This document shows positions 28,536-34,427 of a stretch of DNA of 34,744 nt, in pieces. Source of the DNA: a virus (Duplodnaviria; Heunggongvirae; Uroviricota; Caudoviricetes). How positions within the stretch are numbered: the stretch's first letter is position 1; each line of letters opens with the position of its first letter. A program made the position numbers and the translations under genes. The stretch lies in IMG/VR virus record IMGVR_UViG_2574180160_000007; one strand, given 5' to 3'. Below the pieces are notes generated by a model. It was not told the DNA's origin. It ran no database searches and saw only the letters and a program-made list of their open reading frames with translations.

Positions 28536-29026
28536 GTATCCTCCGGATAATAAAAAGCCAGCTTAGTGCACTGAGTGCGGATATATTCCTGCGCCCCTTC
28601 CAGCTGCTTCTGCATTGTCATCAACCGTTCTCTGAGGATGAAATAATCCCGTTCAGCGGTGTCTGCCAGTCGGGGGCCGGTTGCATTATCCACGCTGGAG
28701 GTGCCGGTGGCTTCACGCACGGTACCGGGGCAGGTGGCGTTGACCCGCAGGCGCTTACGACCAGCGGCAACATCAGCGCGCAGAGTTTCATTTTCAGCTC
28801 TCGCATCGGCTAATTCCTTCGTGTATCTGGCATCAAGCGCAGCGACATCTCGCTGGCGCTGCTGCATGTCAGTAATAGTGGCATTCGCCAGTTTCAGCTC
28901 ACTGACTTTTTTATCGCGCTGCGCTTTGTAGGTGATGGCGTTATCGCGGTAATGATTCAGCCCCAGACTAAGCACACCACAGGCTACCAGCAGGACAATA
29001 ATCACCACACACAGAACACGGTTCAT
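28532..29026 (-). CDS. Rz: Rz i-spanin (start at MNRVLCVV)
   Basis: ..[68 protein letters not shown]...[32 protein letters not shown] closely matches lambda Rz. Confidence 0.9.
28621..28806 (-). CDS. Rz1: Rz1 o-spanin lipoprotein, embedded in Rz in the +1 frame
   Basis: [22 protein letters not shown]...[32 protein letters not shown]: lipobox LVVSAC and Pro-rich motif as in lambda Rz1. Confidence 0.85.
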
Positions 29027-29244
29027 ATCACCACCAACGGATTGCCCAGACCAGAACAGCAATGGCCACAATACGAATGGCAAATGCCATTGCCCGAATA
29101 AGTTCAGCACTCATCTTTTTAAAGTTCACGATTTCAGCGCAATGACCAGTTTTGCCAGCCCATACAGCATCGGAGACACAGCAATACCAACAGCCACCCA
29201 CTTAATAGCAAAAGCCAGCGCTCTGCTGATGTCATCAGTCACTG

Positions 29245-29668: not shown

Positions 29669-30202
29669 TTATCTGTCGATTCCCCAGCACGCCAGCGCGC
29701 TCTCCTGGTCACGACGGGATACCTGACCGTAACAGTTATTTGAGCGAATACGGCAGTCCCTGCCACCGTCCTTAATCCACCAGCGAATCGCCTCACACGC
29801 TCCCCTGCGATCACCTGCATTAATTCGTTTATAAAACGTCGACGGAAAACACTTACCGGGGCCAATGTTGTACGGACAGAATGACGCGATCCCCGCTTTC
29901 TGGGGTTCACTCAATGGCACTCTGATGTTTTTCTCCACCCATGCCAGCGCCTTATCACGCTCAATGGCGTTAACCCGGTCGCATTTTTCCTTCGACAACT
30001 TCATGCCAGGAACGACAGGTTTGCCATCCACCAGGATGGCACCGCGGCAGATGGTCCAGATACCCGCGCCATCACGGTATGCCGTGGTGTGGTTACCTTC
30101 CTTTTCATCCAGAAACTGGTCGAGAATGTCAGGCGCAGGCGCACCAGCGGCAATCAGCGCCAGAACGGCAGCCGACAGGCCGTATTTGATTTTGGTGTTC
30201 AT
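29669..30202 (-). CDS. R: SAR endolysin (T4-lysozyme/GH24 family, signal-anchor-release type)
   Basis: Gly/Ala-rich weakly hydrophobic N-terminus YGLSAAVLALIAAGAPAP followed by catalytic E-x8-D-x5-T (EGNHTTAYRDGAGIWT). Confidence 0.9.
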   Translation of the reverse strand: MNTKIKYGLSAAVLALIAAGAPAPDILDQFLDEKEGNHTTAYRDGAGIWTICRGAILVDGKPVVPGMKLSKEKCDRVNAIERDKALAWVEKNIRVPLSEPQKAGIASFCPYNIGPGKCFPSTFYKRINAGDRRGACEAIRWWIKDGGRDCRIRSNNCYGQVSRRDQESALACWGIDR

Positions 30203-30265: not shown

Positions 30266-30616
30266 TTAAGGTTGTGATTCCGGAGGAGTCTTCAGAGAAC
30301 CAGTAATTATTCCCGGTAGCTTTCCTTTGTAGGTTATCCATACATTCTGCGCCTCTAAAATTACGGGGCGCTTTTCCGGCGACTGCTCATCCCCTTCACA
30401 TAACCCGGCAGCAACATCCAGGAAGACCTGTCTGATGCTCCTTCTGGCTGCTGCCTCATAAAACTCCAGCGTGGCACCTTCAACACGGTCCAGCGAGATG
30501 TCCAGGTCAAAAATTTCACCGTCAAAGCGTTTTTTGTCCCGTAACGCTAAAGTTACCGTAACTTTATTCTCAAAATTGCGGATCCCTTTCACAATCAGTT
30601 CATAGTTTTGAGTCAT
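30266..30616 (-). CDS. DUF1327-like (YdfR-like) protein between holin and endolysin
   Basis: 116 aa MTQNYELIVKGIRNFENKVTVTLALRDKKRFDGEIFDLD...; same position as ydfR in E. coli Qin-type lysis cassettes, from memory. Confidence 0.55.
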   Translation of the reverse strand: MTQNYELIVKGIRNFENKVTVTLALRDKKRFDGEIFDLDISLDRVEGATLEFYEAAARRSIRQVFLDVAAGLCEGDEQSPEKRPVILEAQNVWITYKGKLPGIITGSLKTPPESQP

Positions 30617-30620
30617 TGAA

Positions 30621-30836
30621 TTACTCTCCCCGTGCAGCCTTACGACGGTCCTCTCTGATTTTGAAATACAGGTTAGTCAGATATGTCAGCAGCCCAAACA
30701 GCAGACTCCCCAGCACGCCTATTGCCGCCCACTGAGACGGGGAAACCCTGTCCAGCAACTGCAGGAACCAGTAGCCCGTTCCCACCGCTGACGTGGTGTA
30801 TGACACACCTGTTGTGATTTTTTCCATCTGGTACAT
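30621..30836 (-). CDS. S: Class II pinholin, S21-like, dual start (71-aa form from MYQMEK; 68-aa form from the internal Met at 30827)
   Basis: [68 protein letters not shown] matches phage 21 S21 (..[36 protein letters not shown]). Confidence 0.85.
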
Positions 30837-30869: not shown

Positions 30870-30902
30870 ATAAAAAAAGCCACCAGTTAAGTACTGATGG
30901 CT
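30870..30902 (-). terminator. Intrinsic terminator between nanS-p and the holin gene
   Basis: Minus strand AGCCAUCAG-UACUUAA-CUGGUGGCU followed by UUUUUUU, about 35 nt before the holin start. Confidence 0.55.
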
Positions 30903-30986
30903 CTGATAACTCATGCAGGCATCTCAGACGACCCACTGACACTACCGGTGAGTTTAACGATACCTTCCATTTGACTGGCTCACTTT

Positions 30987-32858
30987 TTATGATGATGCCG
31001 GTGCATTTATCTCCAGCACCAGACTTTCTATCTCAACGCCATACGCTGCATTTTTGGTAATATCCGTCAGCGTCAGCGCATTCAGCCCCAGTGTCAGACT
31101 GTCTTTTATGACCTGGAATGCCGGGCCAGCCACTCCATTCAGTTTCGGAGTAACCGTGGCACTGCCGGCGGTGAACACCAGCTCCAGCGTCTGCCAGTCG
31201 TTACTGTAATTCCCGAACTCGCCCAACTTTGTGTTTCCGGCTTTCTTGTGATGCATCAGATTCAGTTTGCCGTCTGTGGTCTGGGTGAAGAACGACATCA
31301 GGAACGGGTTACCAGTCCCGGTCATCGCCACGACGTCAGGTAACGCTACATCGGTATACAGATAAATTCCCAGACCGAACTGGTTGTTGGTCAGTGCGCC
31401 TGACAGTCGAAACTTACAGCTCAGTCTGCCACCCCGTGTCAGCAGGGAGACCGCGTCATCCACCGGATGCATCAGGGACCAGGTTTTATTGCTCTGCTTG
31501 GTAACCTTAAACACACCATCTTCCAGCGCAACACTGCCGCCGGTGATGGTCCAGCCCTGCGCAGCAGCCTCTCCGGCTGTCGGCAGCAGGGAGACTGTAC
31601 GAACGGATGTGTCACCATCAGACGGCCCCGATGGCGTGTCGCCGCCGGGCGAGGGTTTAATCTCCGGTGCGGTACCGCTGATGAAGGCGCTGGTTCGACC
31701 AACTGCGTTCAGAATAGCGGTTGCCAGGCGATCCGAAATAATGCCCCTGCGCGCCCATGAACTGAAATGTGTCGGACGATTTGACGATACCCAATTACCA
31801 TTACTACGGGATTGCGCGCCGTAATAACCTGCATCAGCAATATCCGGGTCTTCTGCCGGTAAGTTGGTGGGCGTGTTGTTGCCGTTACCGTCGGTCATGA
31901 ACGGCACAAAGAAAACGTTGTCGCTCTCCCTGTTTTTGTACGCGCCGTAGACGGAGTCATACTGTGTGCCGTATGTGTTTTTCCAGTAATACGTCGTGTC
32001 GCCACAAATCCACGGTACAACTGCAGCACTGCCGCCATGGCACTGCGCGTTAAATCCGGAAAGGTCAGTACGGAACTGCTTCAGCATGGCCGTGAACAGG
32101 TCCGGTTGCTGTGCGTAGGTGGCAGCGCTCATGTCAAATTCGCCCTGCATCCAGCACACCGCCAGCAACACATTTTTCGGGTTCTTCTGTAATGCCGCTT
32201 TGGTGCGTGCGATCAGGTCCTGATATAACGGTTTACCCACACCCCAGCGTGCCGAATCCTGGCTGGCCCCCGTGTCCGCACTGAATGTCCCCTCCGCGCC
32301 CTGGGTGAATGCCGAACCACCACGACAGCATGGTACCAGCAGGATCCCCGCGTTATTCGGGATATACGGAAGCAGTTTTTTGGCAATATGTAAGCCCTGG
32401 CCGACACAGCCGTACTGCCCTTTGCTCAGGTCTGCCTTCGGATGATTCAGTGCGCTCATATCCTGAACATCATGCAGGCAGTGGTCTGCCGGAATGATGT
32501 CGTTAAATGCGCATGCTTTACCACCGGGAGTCACTGTGTTGCGACGGGCCAGTTGCTTAATGCGTGGGTGGGGCGCATCGTAAGAATCCGGAAGCGGAAG
32601 CCCTTCACCGTAAGCCATGGCATTGGATTGCCCGGCCAGTACGATGACGTAGTACCACTCCGGCTCAGTTGCACCACTGACGACCACATCACCTTCTGCT
32701 GCAATCGCCTGCATCAGGGTATAAGGGGTTATGGCCACCGGACTACCAAACGGCTGCCAGCCCTCTTTCAGTTTATGTGTCAGCTTTTCCGCAAGATCTG
32801 ACGGCGACGCCGCCCTGACAACATCATAGTGTTTAAATGCCATGGTTCTTTCCACCAT
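30987..32858 (-). CDS. nanS-p: Prophage-type sialate O-acetylesterase (NanS-p-like: DUF1737 N-terminus, SASA/SGNH esterase core, C-terminal carbohydrate-binding-like domain)
   Basis: 623 aa; N-terminus MAFKHYDVVRAASPSDLAEKLTHKLKEGWQPFGSPV; esterase block VIVLAGQSNAMAYGEG; located immediately upstream of the lysis cassette as in Stx phages. Confidence 0.8.
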   Translation of the reverse strand: MVERTMAFKHYDVVRAASPSDLAEKLTHKLKEGWQPFGSPVAITPYTLMQAIAAEGDVVVSGATEPEWYYVIVLAGQSNAMAYGEGLPLPDSYDAPHPRIKQLARRNTVTPGGKACAFNDIIPADHCLHDVQDMSALNHPKADLSKGQYGCVGQGLHIAKKLLPYIPNNAGILLVPCCRGGSAFTQGAEGTFSADTGASQDSARWGVGKPLYQDLIARTKAALQKNPKNVLLAVCWMQGEFDMSAATYAQQPDLFTAMLKQFRTDLSGFNAQCHGGSAAVVPWICGDTTYYWKNTYGTQYDSVYGAYKNRESDNVFFVPFMTDGNGNNTPTNLPAEDPDIADAGYYGAQSRSNGNWVSSNRPTHFSSWARRGIISDRLATAILNAVGRTSAFISGTAPEIKPSPGGDTPSGPSDGDTSVRTVSLLPTAGEAAAQGWTITGGSVALEDGVFKVTKQSNKTWSLMHPVDDAVSLLTRGGRLSCKFRLSGALTNNQFGLGIYLYTDVALPDVVAMTGTGNPFLMSFFTQTTDGKLNLMHHKKAGNTKLGEFGNYSNDWQTLELVFTAGSATVTPKLNGVAGPAFQVIKDSLTLGLNALTLTDITKNAAYGVEIESLVLEINAPASS

Positions 32859-33103: not shown

Positions 33104-33439
33104 ATGAAGTGGATTGTGATTGATACAGTTATCCAGCCATCATGCGGAATATCTTTTTCAGTCATATGGAGTAAAATAAAATTAATAATCTGGTATCAAT
33201 CGGATGCTTTCTTACCTCCTGAAAGTATATTTACACTGACTCACACAGGCATCATGCTCAATAACAAAGTGCTGCCTGTAACCATTTACAACGTAGTACC
33301 ATTCAATAAAACATTCTGGAATTTAATCAAAAACAGCCAGGAATGCCCTACAAATACAGATAACGTATTGAATGAATGCTTTAATAACCGTTGCACTCTG
33401 CAAATATGTCCTTATGGGCTAAAACAACAAAGTCCATAA
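33104..33439 (+). CDS. Hypothetical 111-aa Cys-containing protein, AT-rich, divergent from the late operon (cargo in the stx slot)
   Basis: ATG with AAGGAAA Shine-Dalgarno; upstream TTTACA/TATACT-like promoter elements; strongly AT-rich relative to neighbours; no family recognised. Confidence 0.4.
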
Positions 33440-33475
33440 GGAGTTTACTCACATCTGACAAAATCAATATAAACA

Positions 33476-33498
33476 GCCCCTCCGGAGAGGGGCTGGAG
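33476..33498 (-). terminator. GC-rich hairpin (CAGCCCCTC-CGGA-GAGGGGCTG) with T-run on the minus strand
   Basis: Perfect 9-bp stem, 4-nt loop; on the minus strand followed by UUUAUAUUGAUUUU. Confidence 0.4.
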
Positions 33499-33886
33499 AG
33501 TGGCGCTATGTGCCATTGCATGGTGCCGGGTGCCTCCCGGTGAATTCAGTACCAGCACCTGAATCCGCGATTATCCCATATACCTACTCGCTGATTGCCC
33601 CTCCGCACAGGGGGATTCACCATGCCAGTTTCTTTTAACAAACTCCCCGCAAACCAGACAACAGTCAACCGCCTGAATTGTGAAGTATTTAAAAATTTCT
33701 CCCGCTAACTGATACCCGGCTAACAGTCTGGCGTTTTCTTTTTCAGCAACGGGAAAGCAGCAACCACCACACCCGCCACCAGCACACCGTCAGCCAGCAC
33801 TGACATTATCCGGCTGCTGCAATGCCATTCACAAAAACAGTAAGCAATCACTTTTTACCGTAACCGGTGATAATCCAGATATGTAT

Positions 33887-34350: not shown

Positions 34351-34427
34351 TGGCGCGCTGTACTGGATTCGAACCAGTGACCGATTGCTTAGAAGGCAAT
34401 TGCTCTGTCCGGCTGAGCTAACAACGC
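34351..34427 (-). tRNA. tRNA-Arg (anticodon UCU), phage-borne (argN/argO-like)
   Basis: Minus strand GCGTTGT-TA-GCTC-AGCCGGACA-GAGC-A-ATTGC-CTTCTAA-GCAAT-CGGTC-ACTGG-TTCGAAT-CCAGT-ACAGCGC-G-CCA folds as a canonical 77-nt cloverleaf with TCT anticodon. Confidence 0.85.

What the first reader, a model, noticed from the sequence alone, without database searches (positions are those of the whole stretch)
30987..32858. NanS-p-like sialate O-acetylesterase as late-operon cargo
This 623-aa esterase has a GQSN catalytic block and a DUF1737-like N-terminus, and sits just upstream of the lysis genes as in enterohaemorrhagic E. coli prophages. Such esterases release Neu5Ac from O-acetylated mucin sialic acids and give a gut growth advantage, so this is host-fitness cargo rather than a virion component.
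Basis: established knowledge. Interest (0 to 1): 0.4.

Follow-up and report, generated by a model that had tools for sequence, protein, structure and literature searches.

The report
Known prophage sialic-acid esterase NanS-p
This is an ordinary, already-annotated copy of the prophage sialic-acid O-acetylesterase NanS-p sitting just before the phage lysis genes, but its small N-terminal domain is probably a phage-specific capsid anchor, so calling it "cargo, not a virion part" is no longer safe.

Summary
The ORF is real. It lies on the minus strand, is 623 aa from the first ATG, and most likely starts 15 nt later (32843), giving 618 aa. It has three domains: DUF1737, a SASA/SGNH esterase (E=9e-125 to E. 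coli NanS, 3PT5) and a DUF6645 lectin-like domain (E=1e-30 to the NanS-p C-terminal domain, 6YP6). GQSN (Ser73) and His359 are invariant in 116 homologues. The gene sits between a tRNA/IraM region and holin-lysozyme-Rz in a siphovirus-type E. coli prophage, and identical copies are annotated in RefSeq. It is already known.

The claim "not a virion component" is shaky. A 2026 cryo-EM preprint shows the phi24B homologue decorating capsids through DUF1737. In about 200 loci I found four DUF1737 variants that track head family. A P2-family allele is 98% identical to this protein after codon 60 but only 29% identical before it. However, this window's variant (A) occurs beside two unrelated capsid families, so docking here is unproven. 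Phage phi330 has a 99.8% identical capsid protein and published virion mass spectrometry, which offers a direct test.

The parts
30987..32843 (-).
   Evidence: ORF list; RefSeq start in the 100% identical locus L001; SD and conserved start in homologues; three Pfam domains
32679..32843 (-). DUF1737 domain (residues 1-55), type A anchor loop 'SPVAITPYTLMQ'; beta-alpha-beta-beta fold
   Evidence: Pfam E=4.7e-16; AlphaFold model pLDDT 84; alignment to phi24B gp84 shows residues 1-33 near-identical, a loop 3 aa shorter and no SISSP motif
31704..32657 (-). SASA / SGNH type II esterase domain (about residues 63-380)
   Evidence: phmmer to 3PT5 NanS E=9e-125 over residues 64-384 of the 623-aa ORF; Pfam SASA
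32625..32627 (-). Codon of the nucleophile Ser73 (GQSN block; Gln72 is the oxyanion residue)
   Evidence: Aligns to NanS Ser19 and Gln18; invariant in 116 unique homologues
31767..31769 (-). Codon of the catalytic base His359 (RPTH block)
   Evidence: Aligns to NanS His301; invariant in 116 homologues; the RPTH variant is also reported in Stx2 phage 86 NanS-p (PMC10462455)
30990..31583 (-). C-terminal DUF6645 jelly-roll, lectin-like domain (about residues 421-618), preceded by a Pro/Gly/Ser-rich linker (residues 381-420, 31584-31703)
   Evidence: Pfam DUF6645 E=2.2e-19; phmmer to 6YP6 (NanS-p C-terminal domain) E=1e-30; 3 of 4 proposed sugar-binding aromatic positions stay aromatic: F489, Y494, F519, but L585 (my residue mapping on the alignment; positions from PMC10462455)
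30992..32664 (-). Exchangeable 'esterase + lectin' cassette (codons 60-618): 97.2% nt identity, ungapped, to the NanS-p of P2-family prophages, with no similarity on either side
   Evidence: blastn, window vs L033; protein identity 98% in the body vs 29% in the N-domain plus linker
30876..30904 (-). Terminator-like hairpin plus T-run between the nanS-p stop and the holin start
   Evidence: Pattern scan, sequence; consensus match only
33474..33495 (-). GC-rich terminator-like hairpin upstream of nanS-p on the late-transcript strand (also just past the end of iraM)
   Evidence: Pattern scan: 9-bp stem, 7 GC pairs
30621..30836 (-). Class II (P21-type) holin S
   Evidence: Pfam Phage_holin_2_1 E=2.3e-32; RefSeq start; SD plus ATG
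30266..30616 (-). DUF1327 / YdfR-family gene inside the lysis cassette
   Evidence: Pfam E=6.2e-43; RefSeq
29669..30202 (-). Endolysin (phage lysozyme)
   Evidence: Pfam Phage_lysozyme E=1.3e-23
28532..29110 (-). Rz spanin ORF
   Evidence: Pfam Phage_lysis E=7.2e-51
22992..24929 (-). Prohead protease-major capsid protein fusion (645 aa): the capsid this NanS-p would have to dock on
   Evidence: Pfam Peptidase_S78 + Phage_capsid; PHROG 617 major head protein; no BLASTP similarity to the phi24B MCP; 644/645 identical to the phi330 protein
33104..33439 (+). IraM-like anti-adaptor gene, AT-rich, opposite strand, in the slot occupied by stx in Stx phages
   Evidence: RefSeq annotation of the identical locus; GC 0.33; no Pfam hit
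34351..34427 (-). tRNA-Arg(TCT) of the late-region tRNA cluster downstream of Q
   Evidence: ARAGORN; L001 shows Q, methyltransferase, tRNA-Ile and tRNA-Arg upstream

Best explanation
The gene encodes a three-module NanS-p sialate O-acetylesterase. (1) Shown by homology: the central SGNH type II domain uses Ser73 as nucleophile and His359 as base, with Gln72 and a Gly as oxyanion hole. This is a Ser-His dyad, as in NanS, and it removes 9-O-acetyl groups from Neu5,9Ac2 and mucin sialoglycans. [quoted passage not shown] (2) Inferred from position: the gene is part of the Q-antiterminated late transcript. It has no promoter-like site of its own and no signal peptide. It is therefore made only after prophage induction, together with virion and lysis proteins, and leaves the cell at lysis. 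(3) Inferred, about 50%: the N-terminal DUF1737 is a phage-family-specific docking module that tethers the enzyme-lectin body to the outside of the capsid through a flexible linker, as seen for phi24B gp84. The particle would then carry a mucin-sialate esterase and lectin that helps it bind or move through O-acetylated mucus. Enzyme shed from virions or free in the lysate also makes Neu5Ac available to surviving sibling cells. On this reading it is both a virion accessory and a host-fitness factor, not pure cargo.
For: Identity and catalysis: 3PT5 E=9e-125 and 6YP6 E=1e-30; Pfam architecture; GQSN and His invariant in 116 homologues; dyad mechanism (PMC9063846); all tested NanS-p alleles active (PMC8065619). 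Late expression: order Q - tRNAs - (IraM) - nanS-p - S - R - Rz; flanking hairpins and no upstream promoter-like site; homologues induced 1-2.4 log by mitomycin C (PMC10462455). Docking: phi24B gp84 is abundant in purified virions, and its DUF1737 (Ala2-Ser57, Tyr42 'tooth') forms a hexamer in hexon pores. Window residues 1-33 are near-identical to gp84, and the differences concentrate in the MCP-contacting loop. The predicted fold matches the description. Four DUF1737 variants track head family: B with phi24B-type 8/9, C with ClpP-capsid_4 type 9/9, D with P2 gpN 9/9 against 0/189 others. The loop associates with head type (AMI 0.68) more strongly than upstream DNA, the rest of the gene or the intervening lysis cassette (0.17-0.31). 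The esterase body is 98% identical between this lambdoid allele and P2-family alleles while the N-domain is 29% identical, with the breakpoint at codon 60. In coliphage Jk06 a DUF1737-collagen-like gene lies between the head protease and major head protein genes.
Against: The type A DUF1737, identical over 53 aa to this window's, lies next to lambda gpE-type heads (17 loci) and S78-HK97-type heads (8 loci), which share no sequence similarity. A specific lock-and-key fit is hard to reconcile with that. The phi24B domain binds only the flat hexon on the 3-fold axis of a T=9, roughly 74 nm capsid. The window's capsid type makes heads of about 55 nm (phi330), presumably T=7, which lack such a hexon. 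The A loop is among the shortest in the family alignment, and the SSP processing motifs are absent. Distant stand-alone DUF1737 proteins sit in cellular, non-phage contexts. No solved structure resembles the domain. The phi24B evidence is an unreviewed preprint. The covariation sample is phylogenetically non-independent and covers few lineages. Homologous recombination can only cross over where homology exists, so the mosaic is partly mechanical.
Confidence: 0.5

Rival explanations
1. Pure late-operon cargo. This would be a soluble esterase with no structural role, released at lysis of the induced sub-population. It de-O-acetylates mucin sialic acids so that surviving lysogens can catabolise Neu5Ac. 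DUF1737 would then serve only for folding, oligomerisation or nothing in this allele.
For: Enzymology and growth-advantage data for homologues (PMC8065619). Position next to stx-type morons. An identical type A DUF1737 lies beside two unrelated capsid families. T=7-size heads lack the hexon class used in phi24B. DUF1737 occurs in cellular contexts. A terminator-like hairpin follows the gene, as in morons.
Against: phi24B gp84 is physically on virions. N-domain types are discrete, internally conserved and tied to phage family, while the catalytic body is freely exchanged. The gene is silent in the uninduced lysogen, so the 'lysogen benefit' is indirect. GC content is like the structural genes, not foreign. 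There is no promoter-like site of its own.
Confidence: 0.4
2. A phage-benefit enzyme acting on bacterial rather than host glycans. It would remove O-acetyl groups from LPS O-antigen or from O-acetylated polysialic acid or other capsules, either to expose receptors during adsorption or to free progeny from cell debris.
For: Raised as an open possibility in the Stx-phage review (PMC8065619). SGNH esterases serve this role in tailspikes of other phages (own knowledge). Late co-expression with virion proteins.
Against: 64% identity of the catalytic domain to NanS (my count on the alignment), whose substrate is Neu5,9Ac2. Tested alleles act on Neu5,9Ac2 and mucin. There is no tail-attachment domain, and the gene lies about 14 kb from the nearest tail genes.
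Confidence: 0.07
3. Decaying or inactive paralogue among the many nanS-p copies in E. coli, retained only by hitch-hiking in the late region.
For: Many genomes carry several copies (median 2, up to 14 places per genome). Truncated and split copies are common.
Against: Intact 618-aa ORF with every catalytic and block residue conserved. Copies of 99.7-100% identity occur in many unrelated strains.
Confidence: 0.03

Closest known systems
NanS-p of Stx2 phages 933W (z1466/L0105) and phi24B (vb_24B_21 = gp84)
   Same: Same three-domain architecture (DUF1737-SASA-DUF6645). Same late-region position between the Q/tRNA region and holin S. Same catalytic blocks. 53% identity overall, with the first 33 residues near-identical.
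   Different: The DUF1737 anchor loop is type A: 3 aa shorter, ITPYTLMQ instead of STAGYGAEFIQ. The first linker is about 9 aa shorter and has no SISSP/SSP motifs. Block IV reads RPTH rather than RSSH/RASH. The C-terminal domain is only distantly similar (E=1e-30). The resident phage is a long-tailed type with an S78-HK97 capsid instead of a T=9 podovirus, and there is no stx upstream.
Chromosomal E. coli NanS (YjhS), PDB 3PT5
   Same: Catalytic domain homologous over its full length (E=9e-125). Ser-His dyad, GQSN, CCRGGSAF, WMQGEFD and His blocks all conserved.
   Different: NanS lacks the DUF1737 and DUF6645 domains. It belongs to the nan regulon rather than a phage late operon (PMC10462455; own knowledge).
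NanS-p of P2-family prophages (type D, e.g. locus L033)
   Same: 98% identical over the esterase and lectin body (codons 60-618).
   Different: Different DUF1737 (29% identity). The gene lies between the lysis region and tail gene gpR of a P2-like myovirus with a gpN capsid.
Capsid-displayed accessory domains such as T4 Hoc (mucin-adhering Ig domains), and the DUF1737-collagen-like protein JK_26 of coliphage Jk06
   Same: A small capsid-anchoring module linked to an outward-facing glycan-binding or fibrous module. JK_26 carries DUF1737 and lies next to the major head protein gene.
   Different: Hoc binds as a monomer and is not an enzyme (preprint discussion). Capsid binding of JK_26 and of type A DUF1737 has not been shown.
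Late-region morons of lambdoid phages (stx, bor, lom)
   Same: Non-essential genes embedded in or near the late operon that can benefit the host. This gene lies in the same Q-S interval as stx.
   Different: Classic morons have their own promoter and terminator and often deviant GC. Here there is no promoter-like site, GC resembles the structural genes, and a homologue is a virion protein.

Membership tests
NanS-p (prophage sialate O-acetylesterase) | Central SASA / SGNH type II domain homologous to E. coli NanS | tested here: met
   phmmer to 3PT5 E=9e-125 over the full domain; Pfam SASA 49.6 bits against a cut-off of 24.8
NanS-p (prophage sialate O-acetylesterase) | Catalytic Ser (GQSN) and His, with Gln/Gly oxyanion hole; a Ser-His dyad with no Asp required | tested here: met
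   Ser73, Gln72 and His359 align to NanS Ser19, Gln18 and His301; invariant in 116 homologues
NanS-p (prophage sialate O-acetylesterase) | N-terminal DUF1737 and C-terminal DUF6645 (lectin-like) domains flanking the esterase | tested here: met
   Pfam E=4.7e-16 and 2.2e-19; 6YP6 E=1e-30
NanS-p (prophage sialate O-acetylesterase) | Located in a prophage late region between Q/tRNAs (the stx slot) and holin S | tested here: met
   Window ORFs and annotation of the identical locus L001
NanS-p (prophage sialate O-acetylesterase) | Esterase activity on Neu5,9Ac2 and O-acetylated mucin | not testable with these tools
   Shown for 933W, other EDL933 and O104:H4 alleles only (PMC8065619). The nearest characterised allele I could compare is 53% identical.
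phi24B gp84-type decorating capsid protein | DUF1737 fold: one helix plus a three-stranded antiparallel sheet | tested here: met
   AlphaFold model pLDDT 84, E5-11 H14-26 E36-38 E42-49, compared with the preprint's description
phi24B gp84-type decorating capsid protein | Anchor loop with the Tyr42 'tooth' that inserts between MCP helices | tested here: inconclusive
   A Tyr (Y41) is present, but the loop is 3 residues shorter and of different sequence
phi24B gp84-type decorating capsid protein | Cognate capsid: Phage_capsid_3 MCP, T=9, with a flat hexon on the 3-fold axis | tested here: not met
   The window MCP is a Peptidase_S78-Phage_capsid fusion with no similarity to phi24B gp69. The same capsid protein in phi330 gives heads of about 55 nm.
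phi24B gp84-type decorating capsid protein | SSP-containing linker motifs proposed as autoprocessing sites | tested here: not met
   No SSP tripeptide anywhere in the 618-aa sequence; the linkers read VVVSGATEP and EIKPSPGGDTPSGPSDGDTS
phi24B gp84-type decorating capsid protein | Physical presence in purified virions | not testable with these tools
   The phi330 virion mass spectrometry exists (PRIDE PXD061229), but the paper and its supplement do not report NanS-p
Moron (autonomous late-region cargo gene) | Own promoter and terminator, and atypical base composition | tested here: inconclusive
   A terminator-like hairpin lies downstream, but there is no promoter-like site directly upstream on the coding strand. 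GC of 0.53-0.59 resembles neighbouring phage genes, unlike the AT-rich iraM island. The scans are consensus matches only.

The most novel reading that the evidence does not exclude
DUF1737 may be an interchangeable, phage-family-specific capsid-docking adaptor. If so, the NanS-p genes found in over 40% of complete E. coli genomes, including this one, would encode virion-displayed mucin-sialate esterase and lectin modules carried by lambdoid siphoviruses, phi24B-like podoviruses and P2-like myoviruses. That would make them a phage device for working in O-acetylated mucus rather than a lysogenic-conversion gene. The enzyme body would be traded as a cassette between phage families while each family keeps its own anchor.
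Probability: 0.4. Interest if true: 0.65.

Novelty: already known. Interest (0 to 1): 0.3.

Why it matters
As written, the finding adds nothing new. NanS-p is a described family, and this exact protein is annotated in RefSeq. What matters is how it is interpreted. NanS-p is routinely cited as a textbook example of prophage cargo that feeds the lysogen. If its DUF1737 domain is a capsid anchor matched to the phage's head family, the primary beneficiary may be the phage particle, through mucus adherence or penetration. The many paralogous copies per genome would then reflect one copy per phage type rather than gene dosage. The codon-60 cassette boundary and the phi330 proteomics dataset make this directly testable.

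Tried and rejected
(1) Searching the 58-aa DUF1737 against the word-indexed protein database returned only truncated E. coli NanS-p fragments. (2) The exhaustive HMMER search found distant members, but locus scans seeded with them were unproductive: weak matches, or matches outside the domain. (3) Gene-context look-ups for five distant DUF1737 proteins all gave cellular neighbourhoods, so I could not generalise a capsid role to the Pfam family. (4) The Foldseek search of the DUF1737 model against the PDB gave nothing significant (best E=0.54), and the phi24B capsid model is not in the PDB copy. (5) Saile 2016, Feuerbaum 2018 and Rangarajan 2011 are not held, so I could not align to the other EDL933 and O104:H4 characterised alleles and relied on reviews. 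(6) The supplement of the phi330 paper has no NanS-p proteomics. (7) Considered and rejected: a plus-strand gene (stops); a tailspike or tail-fibre enzyme (no tail-attachment domain, about 14 kb from the nearest tail genes); a Sec-secreted enzyme (the N-terminus is a folded DUF1737 with no hydrophobic leader); a pseudogene (intact, conserved residues). (8) I did not run a full-length structure prediction, because sequence matches to two solved structures already fix the two large domains.
Full report
OBSERVATION. The window carries an uninterrupted ORF at 30987..32858, but on the minus strand; the plus-strand translation is full of stops. The true start is almost certainly the next ATG, at 32843 (MAFKHY..., 618 aa). 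RefSeq annotates the 100% identical gene from that codon (WP_000874316.1, 'SASA family carbohydrate esterase'). A GGTGGA motif lies 7 nt upstream of it, while nothing SD-like precedes 32858. All homologues begin M[ATS][FI]KHY after a GGAG-type SD, and 110 of 153 have no in-frame upstream ATG. The phi24B cryo-EM model begins at Ala2. Residue numbers below refer to the 618-aa protein.

WHAT IT IS. Pfam finds three domains above their gathering scores: DUF1737 (E=4.7e-16), SASA (5.2e-13) and DUF6645 (2.2e-19). Against solved structures, the centre matches E. coli NanS/YjhS (3PT5) at E=9e-125 over the whole catalytic domain. The C-terminus matches the crystallised C-terminal domain of NanS-p (6YP6) at E=1e-30. 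The blocks GQSN (71-74), CCRGGSAF, WMQGEFD and RPTH (356-359) are conserved. Gly71, Gln72, Ser73, Asn74 and His359 are invariant in 116 unique homologues. E. coli NanS works with Ser19 and His301, uses Gln18 and a Gly as oxyanion hole, and lacks the usual Asp (PMC9063846 citing Rangarajan 2011). The RPTH variant of the His block has been noted in Stx2 phage 86 NanS-p (PMC10462455).

CONTEXT. The window is a long-tailed, lambdoid-organised E. coli prophage read on the minus strand. From high to low coordinates it carries tRNA-Arg (34351-34427), a DUF3927 ORF, an AT-rich IraM-like gene on the opposite strand, nanS-p, a P21-type holin, a YdfR/DUF1327 gene, lysozyme, Rz, HNH, TerS and TerL. These are followed by a Peptidase_S78-HK97 capsid fusion, portal, connectors, tail tube, tape measure, the lambda J-like tip, Lom and the tail fibre. 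In the identical RefSeq locus, Q, a DNA methyltransferase and tRNA-Ile lie just beyond the window edge. This is the Q-(stx)-nanS-p-S layout of Stx phages (PMC10462455), with IraM and DUF3927 in place of stx. Terminator-like hairpins lie on the coding strand both upstream (33495-33474) and downstream (30904-30876) of the gene. No promoter-like site lies directly upstream, and GC (0.53-0.59) resembles the neighbouring phage genes. Homologues are induced 1-2.4 log by mitomycin C. I infer Q-dependent late expression. Because the N-terminus is a folded domain rather than a leader peptide, I also infer release at lysis. The gene is common: 2364 of 5426 complete E. coli genomes have a homologue (median 2 places, up to 14), and 38 records are at least 99% identical. 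About 1600 database clusters exist in Escherichia, Shigella, E. albertii and Citrobacter. NanS-p in non-Stx prophages is already described. All tested alleles (seven in EDL933, five in O104:H4) are active esterases that allow growth on Neu5,9Ac2 and de-O-acetylate mucin glycans (PMC8065619).

A 2026 preprint on phi24B (bioRxiv 10.64898/2026.04.10.717836) reports that the NanS-p homologue gp84 is one of the strongest bands in purified virions. It is full-length in fresh preparations and processed on storage. Its DUF1737 domain (Ala2-Ser57) is resolved as a hexamer plugged into the pore of the central hexon of each face of the T=9 capsid, with Tyr42 of a loop acting as a 'tooth' between two MCP helices. 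I therefore asked whether this could apply here. The window protein is 53% identical to gp84. Residues 1-33 are nearly identical, but the anchor loop differs (SPVAITP---YTLMQ against SALISTAGYGAEFIQ). The following linker is shorter and lacks the SISSP motif. A family-alignment AlphaFold model of residues 1-58 is confident (pLDDT 84) and has the described helix plus three-strand topology. The window's capsid protein has no detectable similarity to the phi24B MCP.

COVARIATION TEST. I collected about 210 NanS-p loci with 10-kb flanks from IMG/VR. The DUF1737 loop falls into four discrete types, and there are five head modules:
- Loop types: A VAITPYTLMQ (this window), B LISTAGYGAEFIQ (phi24B), C FSSYTDDGAALIQ, D RVAYEPGTPWYLMQ.
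- Head modules: M1 lambda gpA/gpB/gpC/gpE; M2 the window's S78-HK97 type; M3 phi24B Phage_capsid_3; M4 ClpP-Phage_capsid_4 fusion; and P2 gpO/gpN.
After removing duplicates the pairings are A-M1 37, A-M2 21, A-M4 2, B-M3 8, B-M2 1 and C-M4 9. For D, 9 of 9 informative loci carry the P2 head, against 0 of 189 A, B or C loci.

Linkage alone does not explain this. The loop segment associates with head type (AMI 0.68 with M1 and M2 merged) far better than the other segments, which score 0.17-0.31. Those are the 3 kb upstream, the catalytic and C-terminal parts of the same gene, and the roughly 3 kb lysis cassette between the gene and the head module. The association returns only inside the terminase region (0.59). 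The same catalytic and C-terminal sequence clusters occur with A, B and C anchors and with four head types.

The sharpest case involves this window's allele itself. The P2-family (type D) protein is 98% identical to it over the 557-residue body but 29% identical over the N-domain and linker. At DNA level, an ungapped 97.2% block runs from codon 60 to the last codon (window 32664-30992), with no similarity on either side. The esterase-lectin body has therefore moved recently between a lambdoid and a P2-like prophage, while each phage kept its own DUF1737.

An independent hint comes from the fold search against predicted viral structures. The DUF1737 fold recurs at the N-terminus of other modular phage proteins. 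One of them is Jk06 JK_26, with Pfam DUF1737 at E=3.4e-5 plus a collagen-like repeat. It is encoded between the head protease and the major head protein genes.

WHY DOCKING IS STILL UNPROVEN HERE:
- The identical 53-residue type A domain lies next to lambda-E-type heads (17 loci) and S78-HK97-type heads (8 loci). These capsid families share no sequence similarity.
- In phi24B the domain binds only the flat hexon on the 3-fold axis of a roughly 74 nm T=9 shell. The window's capsid type makes heads of about 55 nm (phi330: MCP 644/645 identical), presumably T=7, which have no such hexon.
- The A loop is among the shortest in the family alignment, and the SSP motifs are missing.
- Five distant stand-alone DUF1737 proteins lie in cellular neighbourhoods, not head modules.
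- No solved structure resembles the domain.
- The covariation sample contains few independent lineages. Recombination can only cross over where homology exists, so the mosaic is partly a mechanical consequence of prior N-domain divergence. Even so, the existence of discrete, internally conserved N-domain types per phage family still calls for a phage-specific partner.

VERDICT. Identity, catalytic competence (by sequence) and late-operon position are secure, and all of this is already known and annotated. The mechanism I consider most likely is a late-expressed, lysis-released three-module enzyme. Its DUF1737 is a phage-family-matched capsid anchor, so the particle displays an esterase and lectin for O-acetylated mucus, with the host-feeding effect as a by-product (about 0.5). 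Action on bacterial surface O-acetyl groups (about 0.07) and a decaying paralogue (about 0.03) are minor alternatives. The most direct test is to re-search the published phi330 virion mass-spectrometry data (PXD061229) for NanS-p peptides, because phi330 combines a type A NanS-p with essentially this window's capsid.

Noticed in passing
window 33104-33439 (+) and 33720-33851 (-): An AT-rich (GC 0.33) IraM-like anti-adaptor gene on the opposite strand, plus a DUF3927 mini-ORF. They occupy the slot between the late tRNA genes and nanS-p where Stx phages carry stx. Pfam does not recognise the IraM-like protein; the name comes from RefSeq.
   Followed up: partly
window 33474-33495 and 30876-30904 (- strand): Terminator-like hairpins flank nanS-p on the late-transcript strand, and no promoter-like site lies directly upstream. 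This fits Q-dependent read-through rather than autonomous expression.
   Followed up: partly
L033:10001-11881 (also L027, L074, L200-L204, L209): NanS-p with a fourth DUF1737 variant (type D) lies inside P2-family prophages, between the lysis region and tail gene gpR. Its body is 98% identical to the window's allele. I did not find NanS-p in P2-like phages mentioned in the papers I read.
   Followed up: yes
L230:14751-15587 (-), coliphage Jk06 JK_26: Annotated as 'DNA polymerase', but it is a tandem DUF1737, collagen-like repeat and C-terminal domain protein. It is encoded between the head maturation protease and the major head protein, so it is probably a head-decoration fibre and mis-annotated.
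   Followed up: partly
L231:49224-49604 and L231:49648-50000 (continues in L232:749-2260), phage phi330: In the deposited phi330 genome the type A NanS-p is split by a frameshift near codon 121. This may be a nanopore homopolymer error or a genuine disruption. The phi330 capsid protein is 644/645 identical to the window's.
   Followed up: partly
proteins P0152, P0154, P0157-P0159, P0162, P0164, P0168; loci L171-L177: Distant DUF1737 proteins are often 2-3 tandem copies of the domain or fusions to repeat-rich tails. The five whose context I checked lie among cellular genes, not phage head modules.
   Followed up: partly
window 20034-21419 (-) and 21416-22780 (-): The portal region reads as two overlapping ORFs: a 454-aa Phage_portal ORF and a 461-aa low-complexity Ala/Glu-rich ORF. 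In the strain with the identical nanS-p, RefSeq annotates a single 861-aa 'portal protein'. phi330 annotates two genes here.
   Followed up: no
window 30266-30616 (-): A DUF1327/YdfR-family gene of unknown function lies between the holin and the endolysin inside the lysis cassette.
   Followed up: no
window 493-1593 (+), 2693-3361 (+), 6953-7552 (-), 27505-27870 (-): Two adjacent DUF892 genes and a SAM-methyltransferase lie at the tail-fibre end of the prophage, possibly the host junction or cargo. Lom lies between the J-like tip protein and the tail fibre. An HNH endonuclease sits next to the small terminase, which is typical of HK97-like packaging modules.
   Followed up: no
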